Translations under genes and position numbers: made by a program
Part shown: positions 21,736 through 61,308 of the stretch, one piece after another
Numbering within the stretch: position 1 is the stretch's first letter
Layout: each line of letters starts with the position of its first letter
Sequence record: OP168898.1
Source: Escherichia phage ZCEC14
Length of the DNA stretch: 64,000 bases
Direction: 5' to 3' (one strand)
The notes under the pieces: generated by a model
What the model saw: only the letters and a program-made list of their open reading frames with translations
Told to the model about the DNA's origin: nothing
Databases searched by the model: none

Positions 21736-21951
21736 ATGAGATTGATTATGAGAACTGAGGTTGTGGTGTTTACTCTTCATGAGTCTGGAAAGTCATTCAT
21801 TGAAATTGCTCGTGAATTAAATTTACAGGCGAAAGAAGTGGCTGTATTATGGGCTCGAGCTATGACTGCTAAGAATAAATTTGAGACTCGAGAAAAAATT
21901 GTCTATAGAAAAAGACATATTAATAAAAAGGTGAAAAATGGAACAGTATGA
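21736..21951 (+). CDS. Small putative HTH DNA-binding protein (71 aa)
   Basis: Segment SGKSFIEIARELNLQAKEVAVLW resembles a helix-turn-helix; basic C-terminus. Confidence 0.45.
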   Translation: MRLIMRTEVVVFTLHESGKSFIEIARELNLQAKEVAVLWARAMTAKNKFETREKIVYRKRHINKKVKNGTV

Positions 21952-55826: not shown

Positions 55827-56551
55827 ATGAAACTAATCTTTTTAAGTGGTGTAAAGCGTAGTGGAAAAGATACTACTGCAGATTTTATCATGAATAATTA
55901 TTCTGCAGCTAAATATCAACTTGCTGGTCCTATTAAAGATGCATTGGCTTATGCATGGGGCGTGTTTGCTGCAAACACTGACTATCCTTGCTTAACTCGT
56001 AAAGAGTTTGAAGGAATTGACTATGATCGTGAGACTAATTTAAATCTGACTAAATTAGAAGTAATCACGATTATGGAACAAGCATTTTGCTATCTTAATG
56101 GTAAAAGCCCAATTAAGGGTGTGTTTGTTTTTGATGACGAAGGACAAGAATCAGTTAATTCCGTAGCATTTAACAAGATTATTGACGTTATAAATAATAT
56201 TGAAGATCAATGGTCAGTCCGTCGTCTGATGCAAGCCCTAGGTACGGATTTGATTGTTAATAACTTCGACCGCATGTATTGGGTAAAATTATTTGCTTTA
56301 GATTATCTTGATAAATTTAACTCAGGTTATGATTATTATATCGTTCCTGATACCCGTCAAGATCATGAAATGGATGCGGCTAGGGCGATGGGTGCTACAG
56401 TAATTCATGTAGTTCGTCCTGGTCAAAAATCCAATGATACACATATTACAGAAGCTGGATTGCCAATTCGTGATGGCGATTTAGTAATTACAAACGATGG
56501 TTCTCTTGAAGAACTTTTTTCTAAAATTAAAAATACACTAAAGGTACTATA

Positions 56552-56552: not shown

Positions 56553-57237
<685 letters not shown>

Positions 57238-57248
57238 TTTCACAAAGT

Positions 57249-57282
57249 TGTTTACATACTGATGAGGTAGTGATACTATTAT
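57249..57282 (+). promoter_or_regulatory. Early promoter cassette (GTTTAC; stem gatgag/ctcatc around gtgatactatta)
   Basis: Shared motif family, upstream of 57310. Confidence 0.55.
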
Positions 57283-57309
57283 CTCATCAAAATTAATTAG
57301 GAAAATAAA

Positions 57310-57618
57310 ATGAAAACATTTAAAGAATTTATCAATGAAGCGGCTGCGCCAAAGACATTCGTTATTAATACTCAGACGAGTCTTGACGATGAGTATGCAG
57401 AGGCAATTCTGAAGTCACTTGCTAAGAACGGCGTTGAAGTAATCGCTTCGGACTTTAAGAAAGGGGCTTCCGAGATGTTTATTTCTATAACTAAAGGATC
57501 TAAAGCTAAGATCAAATCATCATTCGGAGTTGCTCGTACCGATCAAATCGACAATCATGACTTTAAACAAACTGGCGTTAAACGGCAGAACACAATTGCA
57601 TCACGCGGAATAAAATAG
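57310..57618 (+). CDS. Internal-protein-like small basic protein (102 aa) with capsid-targeting-like N-terminus MKTFKEFINEA
   Basis: N-terminus resembles T4 IP capsid-targeting sequence (MKTYQEFIAEA as recalled) with an I-x-E gp21-cleavage-like site. Confidence 0.65.
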   Translation: MKTFKEFINEAAAPKTFVINTQTSLDDEYAEAILKSLAKNGVEVIASDFKKGASEMFISITKGSKAKIKSSFGVARTDQIDNHDFKQTGVKRQNTIASRGIK

Positions 57619-57628
57619 TTTATAAACC

Positions 57629-57660
57629 GTTTACTTTTAGATGGGGTAGTGATACTATTA
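57629..57660 (+). promoter_or_regulatory. Early promoter cassette (GTTTAC; stem gggta/taccc around gtgatactat)
   Basis: Downstream 45 nt nearly identical to cassette at 57913. Confidence 0.55.
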
Positions 57661-57686
57661 CCCTATCAACTACTGAGGAGAATAAA

Positions 57687-57909
57687 ATGAAAACATCTAA
57701 AGAATTTATTGTAGAAGCTAAAAGACGCGAAGACGAACTGCCTTTTGTTTCAAAAACCTTTGATGGAACATTGTCTGATTTTAAAAAATTCCTAATGATA
57801 AACTTGCTAAATTGGTTGGTTCTATCAGTGAAAAAGGTGGCAAGGTCACATTTTCTGCTCAAGGTGTTGCCAATCTTAAAAAACTTTTGAAAGCCGCTGG
57901 TGTTGAATA
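57687..57909 (+). CDS. Internal-protein-like ORF (MKTSKEFIVEA...) interrupted by a frameshift at an A6 run (57783-57788); continues in another frame to TAA 57907-57909
   Basis: With A7 instead of A6 the frame reads ...DFKKIPNDKLAKLVGSISEKGGKVTFSAQGVANLKKLLKAAGVE; the track ORF tail LMINLLNWLVLSV looks out-of-frame. Confidence 0.5.
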
Positions 57910-57912
57910 AAT

Positions 57913-57944
57913 CGTTTACATAGGGTTTTAGTTGTGATACTATT
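57913..57944 (+). promoter_or_regulatory. Early promoter cassette (GTTTAC; gtgatactattaccc)
   Basis: Near-identical to cassette at 57629. Confidence 0.55.
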
Positions 57945-57971
57945 ACCCTATCAACTACTGAGGAGAATAAA

Positions 57972-58157
57972 ATGAAACGTTGTGAATTAATTCGAAATGT
58001 TGCTATTGCAATTTCTGCTTCCGCTTTTAGTTTTTCAATGTTTGTTGGATTTATATGTGGATTATTAACTACAGCAGAAAATGTGTTTTCACTTGTAGTA
58101 GCATTTTTAATTGGTTTAATTGCTATCGTTATGGATAAAATTTCTAAAGGTGAATAG
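57972..58157 (+). CDS. Small membrane protein (61 aa, two predicted TM helices)
   Basis: Hydrophobic segments AIAISASAFSFSMFVGFICGLL and FSLVVAFLIGLIAIVM. Confidence 0.55.
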   Translation: MKRCELIRNVAIAISASAFSFSMFVGFICGLLTTAENVFSLVVAFLIGLIAIVMDKISKGE

Positions 58158-58158
58158 A

Positions 58159-58539
58159 ATGTATAAAGTGTACGCGGATTATCAGGCTAATCCATCTGAA
58201 AAGCCAGGTTGTCAAATTGGATGGGCTCATGATACTTTACTTGAAGCAGTAGATGCTGCTCAAAAATTGGGATATAAATATGTAGAGATTGTTCAACCGT
58301 CAGGAAAAGTTATTACTCTTGAAGAGTTCAATAACATTAAACCGAACTTTTTACTTTTTGCAGGTGATAATTATTATCCTCGTGGTGGATATGCTGATTT
58401 AATCGCGAAAGCCGCCACTGAAGATGAACTCCGTGACATTATCAAAGAAAATGAAAACAAACCAGATTATGGTTCCAATCGCTTTGATTGGTGGCAAATT
58501 GTAAATGCCAATACGCATACTATTGTTGATGAAGGTTGA
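58159..58539 (+). CDS. Hypothetical protein (126 aa from ATG 58159)
   Basis: ORF with RBS aaaggtgaatagaATG; track start 58120 is less likely. Confidence 0.55.
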   Translation: MYKVYADYQANPSEKPGCQIGWAHDTLLEAVDAAQKLGYKYVEIVQPSGKVITLEEFNNIKPNFLLFAGDNYYPRGGYADLIAKAATEDELRDIIKENENKPDYGSNRFDWWQIVNANTHTIVDEG

Positions 58540-58926: not shown

Positions 58927-58999
58927 TGGGAATTAGCCAAGTTGGTAAGGCACTGGATTTTGATTCCAGGATGCAAAGGTTCGAGTCCTTTATTCCCAG
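58927..58999 (+). tRNA. tRNA-Gln (anticodon UUG)
   Basis: Cloverleaf: acceptor tgggaat/attccca, anticodon loop ttttgat, T-arm ggttcgagtcc. Confidence 0.85.
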
Positions 59000-59000
59000 C

Positions 59001-59087
59001 GCGAGAATGGTCAAATTGGTAAAGGCACAGCACTTAAAATGCTGCGGAATGATTTCCTTGTGGGTTCGAGTCCCACTTCTCGCACCA
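59001..59087 (+). tRNA. tRNA-Leu (anticodon UAA), class II long variable arm, CCA encoded
   Basis: Acceptor gcgagaa/ttctcgc, anticodon stem cagca/tgctg with loop cttaaaa. Confidence 0.85.
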
Positions 59088-59092
59088 AATTT

Positions 59093-59166
<74 letters not shown>

Positions 59167-59176
59167 ATTTAATTTA

Positions 59177-59250
59177 CTCCGTGTAGCTCAGTTTGGTAGA
59201 GCGCCTGATTTGGGATCAGGAGGTCCAAGGTTCAAATCCTTGTATGGAGA
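59177..59250 (+). tRNA. tRNA-Pro (anticodon UGG)
   Basis: Anticodon stem cctga/tcagg, loop tttggga; T-arm ggttcaaatcc. Confidence 0.8.
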
Positions 59251-59252
59251 CT

Positions 59253-59342
59253 GGAGGCGTGGCAGAGTGGTTTAATGCACCGGTCTTGAAAACCGGCAGT
59301 CGCTCCGGCGACTCATAGGTTCAAATCCTATCGCCTCCGCCA
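59253..59342 (+). tRNA. tRNA-Ser (anticodon UGA), long variable arm
   Basis: Acceptor ggaggcg/cgcctcc, anticodon stem ccggt/accgg, loop cttgaaa. Confidence 0.85.
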
Positions 59343-59347
59343 GTTTT

Positions 59348-59423
59348 GCTGATTTAGCTCAGTAGGTAGAGCAACTCACTTGTAATGAGAAGGTCGGCGG
59401 TTCGATTCCGTCAATCAGCACCA
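59348..59423 (+). tRNA. tRNA-Thr (anticodon UGU)
   Basis: Acceptor gctgatt/aatcagc, anticodon loop cttgtaa. Confidence 0.85.
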
Positions 59424-59424
59424 A

Positions 59425-59499
59425 GGCCCTGTAGCTGGAAGGTTCAAGCAAGCGACTCATAATCGCCAGATGGTGGTTCAATTCCACCCAGGGCCACCA
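59425..59499 (+). tRNA. tRNA with CAU anticodon (Ile2-type if lysidine-modified, otherwise Met)
   Basis: Acceptor ggccctg/cagggcc, anticodon loop ctcataa. Confidence 0.75.
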
Positions 59500-59511
59500 A
59501 ATTATGAATTA

Positions 59512-59598
59512 GGGGAGTTATCCCGTAGAGGTAGCGGTGTGGACTGTAAATCCATTGTCATTGCGACTCGGGTGGTTCGACTCCATCACTCCCCACCA
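59512..59598 (+). tRNA. tRNA-Tyr (anticodon GUA), long variable arm
   Basis: Acceptor ggggagt/actcccc, anticodon stem tgga/tcca, loop ctgtaaa. Confidence 0.75.
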
Positions 59599-59602
59599 AT
59601 TT

Positions 59603-59677
59603 GGATGTGTAGCTCAATGGCAGAGCGATCGCCTGTTAAGCGATTGGTTATAGGTTCGAATCCTATCACGTCCGCCA
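59603..59677 (+). tRNA. tRNA-Asn (anticodon GUU)
   Basis: Acceptor ggatgtg/cacgtcc (G-U pair), anticodon loop ctgttaa, T-arm ggttcgaatcc. Confidence 0.75.
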
Positions 59678-59681
59678 AATC

Positions 59682-59757
59682 CGAGGCATAGCTCAGAAGG
59701 AAGAGCAAGGACCTTCTAAGTCCTGGGTCGTAGGTTCGATCCCTACTGCCTCGACCA
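59682..59757 (+). tRNA. tRNA-Arg (anticodon UCU)
   Basis: Acceptor cgaggca/tgcctcg, anticodon stem ggacc/gtcc, loop ttctaag. Confidence 0.8.
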
Positions 59758-61275: not shown

Positions 61276-61308
61276 GTTTACATCCCTGTTCTTCCATGGT
61301 ACTATACA
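61276..61308 (+). promoter_or_regulatory. Early promoter cassette (GTTTAC; ccatggtactatac)
   Basis: Shares leader caactatcaactactga and ggagaataaaATG with other cassettes. Confidence 0.5.

What the first reader, a model, noticed from the sequence alone, without database searches (positions are those of the whole stretch)
57237..58160. Cluster of capsid-targeting-signal proteins behind repeated early promoter/stem-loop cassettes
Between gene 57B and the tRNA genes there are three small ORFs, each preceded by a near-identical cassette (GTTTAC, an inverted repeat enclosing a gtgatactatta -10-like element, leader ctatcaactactgagGAGAATAAAATG). The first two ORFs begin MKTFKEFINEA and MKTSKEFIVEA, closely resembling the T4 internal-protein capsid-targeting sequence (MKTYQEFIAEA as I recall), which gp21 cleaves after an (L/I)-x-E site. 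From established knowledge, T4 internal proteins are packaged and injected with the DNA, and IPI inhibits a host restriction system. These ORFs show no other similarity to IPI/II/III that I can see, so they may be injected effectors of unknown target. The cassettes resemble the mobile early-promoter stem-loop (PeSL) elements described in T4-type phages.
Basis: partly seen in the sequence, partly recalled or inferred. Interest (0 to 1): 0.7.

Follow-up and report, generated by a model that had tools for sequence, protein, structure and literature searches.

The report
Known T-even internal-protein genes ip7, ip8
This stretch is the well-described variable "internal protein" locus of a T4-like phage, carrying the already named genes ip7 and a frameshifted ip8 behind shuffled early-promoter/stem-loop cassettes. 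It is correctly read by the first stage but is not new.

Summary
Three small + strand ORFs lie between 57B and the tRNA cluster, and each follows a near-identical cassette: a T4 early promoter (TTTACW-N17-TACTAT with TG), a hairpin around the -10 element, a leader and an RBS.

ORF1 is Ip7. It is 102 aa, identical to UFV-AREG1 gp264 and 1 aa from RB15 Ip7. ORF2 is Ip8 with a private 1-nt deletion (A7 to A6, 57783-57788); phage VEc74 has the same allele intact. ORF3 is Trna.4, a small membrane protein without a capsid-targeting signal.

Ip7 and Ip8 carry the 10-residue capsid-targeting sequence and the I-x-E gp21 site. Beyond that they show no similarity to T4 IPI, IPII or IPIII.

The locus, the gene names and the cassette-mediated shuffling were described by Repoila et al. 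1994 and extended as PeSLs in 2010 and 2014. Four proteins of this class have known targets, all type IV restriction systems: Ip1-3 inhibit GmrSD variants and Bas37_0260 inhibits McrBC. Ip7 and Ip8 were screened against GmrSD panels in 2025 without a reproducible hit, so their targets remain unknown.

Structure models are generic and uninformative. Verdict: already known, low interest.

The parts
56779..57237 (+). Gene 57B, the left border of the variable locus. Pfam family Acb1 (anti-CBASS nuclease family).
   Evidence: ORF. Its orthologues carry PF23474:Acb1. It sits at the same position as T4 57B.
57251..57279 (+). Cassette 1 promoter: TTTACA-N17-TACTAT with TG before the -10. Apart from one C-to-T change in the 3' hairpin arm and one fewer A in the leader A-run, it matches the T4 ipI upstream region.
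57260..57289 (+). Cassette 1 hairpin: 13-bp stem including G-U pairs, with the -10 element in its loop and inner stem.
   Evidence: -14.8 kcal/mol, z = -4.07
57310..57618 (+). ip7: 102-aa precursor. CTS is residues 1-10 (MKTFKEFINE), with predicted gp21 cleavage after E10. Predicted mature protein is 92 aa, 9.9 kDa, pI 9.65.
   Evidence: Identical to UFV-AREG1 YP_010581644 and 1 aa from RB15 Ip7. phrog_2667, E = 5e-41. Physico-chemical values.
57630..57658 (+). Cassette 2 promoter: TTTACT-N17-TACTAT with the same GTGATACTAT core as cassettes 1 and 3.
57640..57667 (+). Cassette 2 hairpin, 12-bp stem around the -10.
   Evidence: -16.1 kcal/mol, z = -3.28
57687..57910 (+). ip8, frameshifted. It reads as 67 aa (57687-57890). 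The Ip8 C-terminal 32 residues are in another frame (57812-57910). The repaired 74-aa product is identical to VEc74 Ip8.
   Evidence: phrog_8765, E = 8e-23.
57783..57788 (+). A6 run, the site of the 1-nt deletion. Relatives have A7.
   Evidence: Alignments. The allele was not found in IMG/VR or as a called protein.
57915..57943 (+). Cassette 3 promoter: TTTACA-N17-TACTAT with TG. It matches the T4 trna.4 promoter region apart from one base (C to T) in the spacer.
57920..57951 (+). Cassette 3 hairpin: ATAGGGT/ACCCTAT arms around the -10.
   Evidence: -14.2 kcal/mol, z = -2.49
57972..58157 (+). trna.4: conserved 61-aa hydrophobic protein. It has no CTS and is not an internal protein. It is the right border of the variable locus.
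   Evidence: 100% identical to T4 Trna.4. phrog_1692. PF26870 Phage_T4_Y07D on orthologues.

Best explanation
This is the ipI-type hypervariable internal-protein locus of a Tequatrovirus, in the arrangement 57B - ip7 - ip8 (frameshifted) - trna.4.

**Shown here**
- ORF1 and ORF2 are orthologues of the named genes ip7 and ip8.
- Each gene is preceded by a T4 early-promoter cassette whose -10 element sits inside a hairpin.
- The cassettes share a conserved core (GTGATACTATTA, then leader and RBS) but have different arms.
- The homology breakpoint against a related phage falls inside that core.

**Inferred from established T4 biology**
- The genes are transcribed by host RNA polymerase immediately after infection.
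- The 10-residue N-terminal capsid-targeting sequence brings the precursors into the prohead scaffold core.
- The prohead protease gp21 cuts after Glu10 (INE|A and IVE|A).
- The small basic mature proteins stay in the head and are injected with the DNA.

**Inferred by analogy**
- Every T-even internal protein with a known target is an inhibitor of type IV restriction: Ip1, Ip2 and Ip3 each inhibit a different GmrSD, and Bas37_0260 inhibits McrBC.
- Ip7 most likely neutralises a specific modification-dependent nuclease or another immediate-early host defence. That target is still unidentified.
- The same would hold for Ip8 where the gene is intact. In this genome ip8 is inactivated, or mis-sequenced, by loss of one A.

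**Role of the cassettes**
- They provide autonomous expression.
- They provide about 40-70 bp of homology, extended by the CTS-coding 5' end, on which T4 recombination swaps, inserts or deletes ip modules.
For: **Identity**
- The PHROGs families are 'internal head protein' and 'internal virion protein'.
- Ip7 relatives occur in 283 phage records and Ip8 relatives in 107.

**CTS**
- Among 38 distinct MK[TS]xx[EKQD]F-initiated ORFs in the fetched loci, residue 4 is Y or F in 36.
- IxE is at residues 8-10 in both proteins.
- The literature states that the first 10 residues of IPIII suffice for packaging, that residues 4 and 7 govern targeting, and that residues 8 and 10 govern processing (PMC9026906).

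**Promoter and hairpin**
- Across 93 unique IMG/VR cassettes sharing GTTTAC-N14-GTGATACTAT, 34% have a perfect stem of 6 bp or more around the -10. The figure is 6.5% when left and right halves are mismatched. Many different arm sequences are used.

**Shuffling**
- The window's ip7 upstream region matches T4's ipI upstream region through codon 7, apart from one C-to-T change in the hairpin arm and one fewer A in the leader.
- Cassettes 2 and 3 have identical 3' halves and different 5' halves.
- Homology with VEc74 starts at GGTAGTGATACTAT, which leaves VEc74 with a chimeric, non-complementary hairpin.
- Alternative arrangements carrying exactly this Ip7 protein are listed.

**Function by analogy**
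- PMC12373910 and bioRxiv 10.1101/2025.11.20.689424.
- Bas37_0260 occupies the slot immediately upstream of trna.4, the slot that ip8 occupies in this window.
Against: - No direct evidence was found here that Ip7 or Ip8 are in virions. Full-text searches pairing Ip7 with 'internal head protein' or with GmrSD returned nothing.
- Ip7 and Ip8 were tested against GmrSD variants. The apparent hits (ip7 with CLS_011; ip8 with CLS_018/019) were not reproducible.
- T2 carries ip5 and ip7 and is still restricted by GmrSD-ECOR17 and GmrSD-ECOR21.
- The hairpins lack a U-tract and were not called as intrinsic terminators.
- This allele of Ip8 has Ser at CTS residue 4, a targeting-critical position.
Confidence: 0.85

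Rival explanations
1. Ip7 and Ip8 are generic basic internal head proteins. On this view they act as counter-ions for DNA or as aids to the scaffold core. They have no specific host target, and their diversity reflects relaxed constraint.
For: - The mature proteins are small and basic: pI 9.65 and 9.76.
- IPIII and triple-IP mutants show head-assembly aberrations (PMC9026906).
- GmrSD screens with ip7 and ip8 were negative.
- The folds are generic.
Against: - All four internal proteins with an assigned function are specific anti-restriction factors.
- Ip7 is strongly conserved. It is 100% identical across many independent phages, and its C-terminal tail is near-invariant. That argues for selection on a specific sequence rather than on bulk charge.
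- RB15 Ip9 is not basic, with pI 6.8.
Confidence: 0.2
2. The ip8 frameshift is a homopolymer sequencing or assembly error. On this view the real phage has an intact 74-aa Ip8.
For: - The lesion is a single base missing from an A7 run.
- The rest of the gene is 100% identical at the DNA level to the intact VEc74 allele.
- The frameshift allele is absent from IMG/VR and from the protein-position index.
Against: - Nothing in the sequence can distinguish an error from a recent real mutation.
- ip genes are dispensable and are gained and lost frequently. Many close relatives with the same Ip7 lack ip8 altogether.
Confidence: 0.4
3. Full-length Ip8 is still made at low level. The route would be -1 ribosomal slippage or transcriptional slippage on TTT-AAA-AAA-T, making the A-run a leaky or phase-variable switch.
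For: By direct reading of 57780-57795, a -1 shift on the second AAA codon restores ...DFKKIPNDKL... exactly.
Against: - There is no stimulatory structure downstream.
- A6 is short for efficient transcriptional slippage.
- No other genome shows length variation at this run.
Confidence: 0.05
4. The N-terminal resemblance to the capsid-targeting sequence is coincidental, and these are ordinary cytoplasmic early proteins.
For: None was found beyond the absence of direct virion proteomics for these two proteins.
Against: - The 10-residue motif, the IxE site, the position in the ipI slot and the shared upstream cassette all coincide.
- The CTS alone packages foreign proteins.
- The neighbouring ORF trna.4 sits behind the same cassette and lacks the motif. 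The motif is therefore not simply part of the cassette.
Confidence: 0.03

Closest known systems
[not shown]
   Same: - The genes are orthologous. Ip7 differs from RB15 Ip7 by 1 aa in 102.
- Repaired Ip8 is about 93% identical to RB15 Ip8 by the alignment.
- The locus is the same, between 57B and trna.4, and the upstream cassettes are the same.
   Different: - The arrangement here is 57B-ip7-ip8-trna.4, with no ip5, ip9 or ipI. That arrangement was not among the records I inspected.
- ip8 carries a private frameshift.
- Ip8 has the rare Ser4 CTS variant, shared only with VEc74 among the 38 distinct CTS-type ORFs compared.
T4 IPI / IPI* (PDB 2JUB), the injected inhibitor of GmrSD-CT596. Also T4 IPII and IPIII, which inhibit GmrSD-ECOR21 and GmrSD-ECOR17.
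   Same: - The CTS and gp21 site match.
- The proteins are small and basic.
- ip7 occupies the same genomic slot as ipI and has essentially the same promoter cassette.
   Different: - There is no sequence similarity in the mature regions.
- There is no fold match to 2jub.
- No reproducible inhibition of tested GmrSD variants has been reported.
Bas37_0260 (phage KarlGJung), a CTS-bearing McrBC inhibitor (bioRxiv 10.1101/2025.11.20.689424)
   Same: - It sits in the slot immediately upstream of trna.4.
- It has the same type of cassette and a CTS.
   Different: It is a different protein: 77 aa, with only the CTS shared with Ip7 and Ip8.
PeSL (promoter-early stem-loop) cassettes of T4-type phages (Arbiol 2010, PMC2839356; Comeau 2014, PMC4122927)
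   Same: - An early promoter is combined with a stem-loop overlapping the -10.
- The elements are intergenic, sit in a hyperplastic region and flank variable ORFs.
- Recombination breakpoints fall in the loop or core.
   Different: - The promoter is T4-type (TTTACW...TAYWAT), not the perfect sigma-70 consensus.
- The stems are AT-richer and lack polyG/polyC. Arbiol 2010 therefore calls the IP-locus elements analogues rather than homologues.

Membership tests
T-even internal proteins (CTS family) | N-terminal ~10-residue capsid-targeting sequence, consensus MKT(Y/F)(Q/K)EFIxE(A/S) | tested here: met
   - Ip7 begins MKTFKEFINEA and Ip8 begins MKTSKEFIVEA.
- Ip8 has Ser at residue 4, a targeting-critical position.
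- Trna.4 (MKRCELI) does not meet this feature.
T-even internal proteins (CTS family) | gp21 cleavage motif (L/I)-x-E at residues 8-10, followed by a small residue | tested here: met
   INE|A in Ip7 and IVE|A in Ip8
T-even internal proteins (CTS family) | Encoded in one of the two polymorphic IP loci (57B-trna.4, or e-denV) | tested here: met
   The genes lie between 57B and trna.4, the same position as T4 ipI.
T-even internal proteins (CTS family) | Orthology to a named ip gene | tested here: met
   [not shown]
T-even internal proteins (CTS family) | Physically packaged in the head, processed, and injected with the DNA | not testable with these tools
   This needs virion proteomics or N-terminal sequencing. 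No such data for Ip7 or Ip8 were found in the library.
PeSL (promoter-early stem-loop) cassettes | Early promoter -35 and -10 boxes with correct spacing, upstream of an RBS and start codon | tested here: met
   All three cassettes match TTTACW-N17-TACTAT. The window has 5 matches against 0.27 expected.
PeSL (promoter-early stem-loop) cassettes | Stable stem-loop within or overlapping the promoter | tested here: met
   - Fold energies are -14.2 to -16.1 kcal/mol, z = -2.5 to -4.1.
- Arm complementarity is enriched across 93 related cassettes: 34% against 6.5%.
PeSL (promoter-early stem-loop) cassettes | Association with insertion, deletion or replacement of flanking ORFs, with breakpoints in the cassette | tested here: met
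   - The homology breakpoint against VEc74 lies in the -10 core.
- ipI is replaced by ip7 behind an almost identical cassette.
- Several locus arrangements exist around the same Ip7.
PeSL (promoter-early stem-loop) cassettes | Demonstrated promoter and terminator or attenuator activity | not testable with these tools
   - This needs reporter assays.
- There is no U-tract and no terminator call.
- Activity has been shown only for RB49/phi1 PeSLs.
Injected type IV restriction inhibitors (IPI*-like function) | Sequence or structural similarity to a characterised inhibitor (IPI* 2JUB, IPII, IPIII, Bas37_0260) | tested here: not met
   [not shown]
Injected type IV restriction inhibitors (IPI*-like function) | Inhibition of a specific GmrSD, McrBC or other modification-dependent nuclease | not testable with these tools
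   A published screen of ip4-10 against GmrSD variants gave no reproducible interaction for ip7 or ip8.

The most novel reading that the evidence does not exclude
Ip7, and intact alleles of Ip8, are injected inhibitors of host defences outside the GmrSD variants screened so far. Candidates are another type IV or modification-dependent nuclease such as an McrBC-like system, or a non-restriction defence. The invariant, predicted-disordered basic C-terminal tail of Ip7 (FKQTGVKRQNTIASRGIK) would be the target-binding element. The broken ip8 here would record recent loss of a counter-defence that this phage's hosts no longer require.
Probability: 0.4. Interest if true: 0.4.

Novelty: already known. 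Interest (0 to 1): 0.18.

Why it matters
The IP loci are a natural catalogue of proteins that a phage delivers with its DNA before any gene is expressed. Each newly assigned target has revealed a host defence or its weak point. Ip7 occurs in 283 phage records and Ip8 in 107, and neither has an assigned target, so they remain reasonable candidates for defence-system screens. This window adds only a new combination of known modules and a probably inactive ip8.

Tried and rejected
**Family and homology searches**
- Pfam scans gave only sub-threshold noise for all three proteins.
- PDB profile searches gave nothing significant for Ip7 or Ip8.
- An HMM search of 1.84 billion representative proteins with the Ip7 profile found 4 hits. 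Three are Ip7 relatives or fragments. The fourth is an odd 664-aa protein matching seven times with only profile positions 44-71. No remote family emerged that would suggest a function.

**Structure**
- AlphaFold models are moderate: Ip7 pLDDT 68.8 and Ip8 pLDDT 77.5.

**Frameshift allele**
- The exact frameshifted Ip8 product and the A6 DNA allele were not found elsewhere.
- The A7 control pattern was found once.

**Link to a characterised inhibitor**
- I tested whether the newly characterised McrBC inhibitor Bas37_0260 is Ip7 or Ip8. It is a different IP.

**Late promoter**
- No TATAAATA lies within the locus. The nearest on the + strand are at 56189 and 58273.

**Literature**
- One search was wasted on 'IP7/IP8', which returned inositol pyrophosphate papers.
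- Repoila 1994 (PMC395341) is not held. Its content is cited only through the GenBank record and later papers.
Full report
**What is in the sequence**

The region 57237-58160 lies between gene 57B (56779-57237) and a block of trna.4, trna.3 and trna.2 followed by ten tRNA genes (58927-59757). It is part of a T4-like (Tequatrovirus) genome. That genome is not itself in the phage collection: the best 12-kb matches are about 96% identical.

Three + strand ORFs are present:
- 57310-57618, 102 aa.
- 57687-57890, 67 aa. A further 32 codons of the same gene continue in another frame to 57910.
- 57972-58157, 61 aa.

**The cassettes**

Each ORF is preceded by a repeated cassette. A 71-nt repeat is 86% identical between cassettes 2 and 3. 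Repeats of 46-51 nt are 67-82% identical among all three.

Each cassette matches TTTACW-N17-TAYWAT, the consensus published for PST/T4 PeSL promoters. The pattern occurs 5 times in the window against 0.27 expected by shuffling, and three of the five are here. The general sigma-70 scan listed cassettes 1 and 3 and flagged TG before the -10; cassette 2 carries the same GTGATACTAT core.

Each cassette folds into a hairpin whose loop and inner stem contain the -10 hexamer. Energies are -14.8, -16.1 and -14.2 kcal/mol, with z-scores of -4.1, -3.3 and -2.5. A transcript starting at the cassette's own promoter would begin inside the 3' arm. Only read-through RNA from upstream, or single-stranded DNA, can therefore form the hairpin. 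No hairpin is followed by a U-tract, and none was called as an intrinsic terminator.

**Identity of the genes**

- **ORF1 is Ip7.** It is identical to UFV-AREG1 YP_010581644 and one residue different from RB15 Ip7 and from T2 Ip7.
- **ORF2 is Ip8.** One A is missing from an A7 run, leaving A6 at 57783-57788.
- **ORF3 is Trna.4.** It is 100% identical to the T4 protein. It is a hydrophobic 61-residue protein with no capsid-targeting sequence.

PHROGs places ORF1 in 'internal head protein' (E = 5e-41) and repaired ORF2 in 'internal virion protein' (E = 8e-23). Ip7 relatives occur in 283 phage records, including RB69, CC31 and Klebsiella T4-like phages. Ip8 relatives occur in 107.

**The capsid-targeting signal**

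T4 IPII and IPIII begin MKTYQEFIAEA, and T4 IPI begins MKTFKEF. Ip7 begins MKTFKEFINE|A and Ip8 begins MKTSKEFIVE|A. Both have the I-x-E gp21 motif at residues 8-10.

The literature held here (PMC9026906) states that:
- the first ten residues of IPIII suffice for packaging, including of foreign proteins;
- residues 4 and 7 matter most for targeting;
- residues 8 and 10 matter most for processing.

Among 38 distinct CTS-type ORFs in all fetched loci, residue 4 is Tyr or Phe in 36. The two exceptions are this window's Ip8 and the VEc74 Ip8, both with Ser. The Ser4 allele is therefore real and occurs in an intact gene in VEc74. Whether it is packaged as efficiently is unknown.

Outside the CTS, the mature parts show no significant similarity to T4 IPI, IPII or IPIII, or to Ip5 or Ip9. 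Mature Ip7 is 92 aa with pI 9.65, and mature Ip8 is 64 aa with pI 9.76.

**The frameshift**

The window's ip8 is identical at the DNA level to the VEc74 allele except for the missing A. The frameshift allele was found neither in IMG/VR (the A7 control was found) nor as a called protein in the large assembly index. It is either a homopolymer sequencing error or a very recent private mutation, and the sequence alone cannot decide. A -1 slip on TTT-AAA-AAA-T would restore the Ip8 frame exactly. Nothing suggests this is programmed.

**Evidence for cassette-mediated shuffling**

1. The window's ip7 upstream region matches T4's ipI upstream region from the end of 57B through codon 7 of the ORF, apart from one C-to-T change in the 3' hairpin arm and one fewer A in the leader A-run. 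ip7 therefore sits exactly in the ipI slot.
2. Cassettes 2 and 3 have identical 3' halves (GTGATACTATTACCCTATCAACTACTGAGGAGAATAAAATGAAA) and different 5' halves.
3. Against VEc74, where ip9 precedes ip7, homology begins at GGTAGTGATACTAT. VEc74's hairpin upstream of ip7 is chimeric, with non-complementary arms.
4. The exact Ip7 protein is found in at least four other arrangements:
   - 57B-ip9-ip7-trna.4
   - 57B-ip7-trna.4
   - 57B-ip9-ip7-ip8-trna.4
   - 57B-ipI-ip9-ip7-ip8-trna.4

   T2 has 57B-ip5-ip7-trna.4, with an Ip7 that differs by one residue.
5. In 93 unique IMG/VR cassettes sharing GTTTAC-N14-GTGATACTAT, 34% have a perfect stem of 6 bp or more around the -10. The figure is 6.5% when left and right halves from different cassettes are paired. 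Arm sequences are diverse. Complementarity is maintained while the arm sequence changes.

**This is published knowledge**

- Arbiol et al. 2010 state that Repoila et al. [quoted passage not shown] They call them analogues of RB49/phi1 PeSLs and mention more than 30 IP variants.
- Comeau et al. 2014 extend PeSLs to the T4/PST pair.
- RB49/phi1 PeSLs were shown to have promoter and terminator activity and loop-located crossovers.

**Function**

- Ip1, Ip2 and Ip3 of T4 each inhibit a different GmrSD type IV restriction enzyme (PMC12373910).
- A different CTS protein, Bas37_0260, inhibits McrBC (bioRxiv 10.1101/2025.11.20.689424). I located it in phage KarlGJung (MZ501089), immediately upstream of trna.4 and behind the same type of cassette. 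It is neither Ip7 nor Ip8.
- Supplementary Figure 9 of PMC12373910 reports that ip4-10 were tested against GmrSD variants. [quoted passage not shown]
- T2 carries ip5 and ip7 and is restricted by GmrSD-ECOR17 and GmrSD-ECOR21.

The target of Ip7 and Ip8 is therefore still unknown. The most likely class is a modification-dependent nuclease or another immediate-early defence.

**Structure and remote homology**

- AlphaFold models:
  - Ip7 has a ferredoxin-like beta-alpha-beta-beta-alpha-beta core (residues about 11-83, pLDDT 72-85). Its C-terminal basic tail has low confidence but is almost invariant in sequence.
  - Ip8 has a small alpha/beta domain (residues 20-74, pLDDT about 85).
- Pfam, PDB profile searches and an exhaustive HMM search of 1.84 billion representatives found no informative relatives.

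**Verdict**

The feature is the classic IP locus with named genes and a described shuffling mechanism. What is specific to this window is minor: a module combination (57B-ip7-ip8-trna.4) not seen among the records I inspected, a rare Ser4 CTS allele shared with VEc74, and a private frameshift in ip8.

Noticed in passing
window 56779-57237: The left neighbour, 57B, belongs to Pfam PF23474 (Acb1, the anti-CBASS nuclease family). The variable ip modules therefore sit directly beside another counter-defence gene.
   Followed up: partly
window 57668-57686 and 57953-57971 versus 57291-57309: The ip8 and trna.4 leaders carry GAGGAG, which contains the GGAG motif cut by T4 RegB in early mRNAs. The ip7/ipI-type leader (TTAGGAAAATAAA) and the T4 ipII and ipIII leaders do not. 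ip8 may therefore be shut off earlier than other ip genes.
   Followed up: no
L004 (VEc74, MT932213) locus 2470-2545: The cassette upstream of ip7 in VEc74 is a chimera. Its 5' arm is AAATAGGGTA, of the trna.4/ip8 type, and its 3' arm is TATCTCATCA, of the ipI type. The hairpin is broken. This is a visible scar of a crossover in the -10 core. Similar chimeras appear among IMG/VR cassettes, for example upstream of ip9-like ORFs.
   Followed up: partly
window 58927-59757: Ten contiguous tRNA genes are present: Gln, Leu, Gly, Pro, Ser, Thr, Met, Tyr, Asn and Arg. T4 has eight. No homing endonuclease (segB) lies inside the cluster, unlike T4 and Bas37.
   Followed up: no
window 61277-61305 and 21822-21850: These are the two other exact matches to the T4-type early-promoter pattern TTTACW-N17-TAYWAT. 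The one at 61277 (TTTACATCCCTGTTCTTCCATGGTACTAT) lies in the variable region downstream of the tRNAs.
   Followed up: no
P0027: A 664-aa protein from the representative library matches Ip7 profile positions about 44-71 in seven separate stretches (E = 6e-7). It may be a repeat protein sharing a short motif with Ip7. Its origin and meaning are unknown.
   Followed up: no
Ip7 residues 84-102 (window 57559-57615): The C-terminal tail FKQTGVKRQNTIASRGIK is nearly invariant across Ip7 homologues down to 67% overall identity. It is nevertheless predicted to be disordered (pLDDT below 50). This pattern would fit a binding motif that folds on its target.
   Followed up: partly
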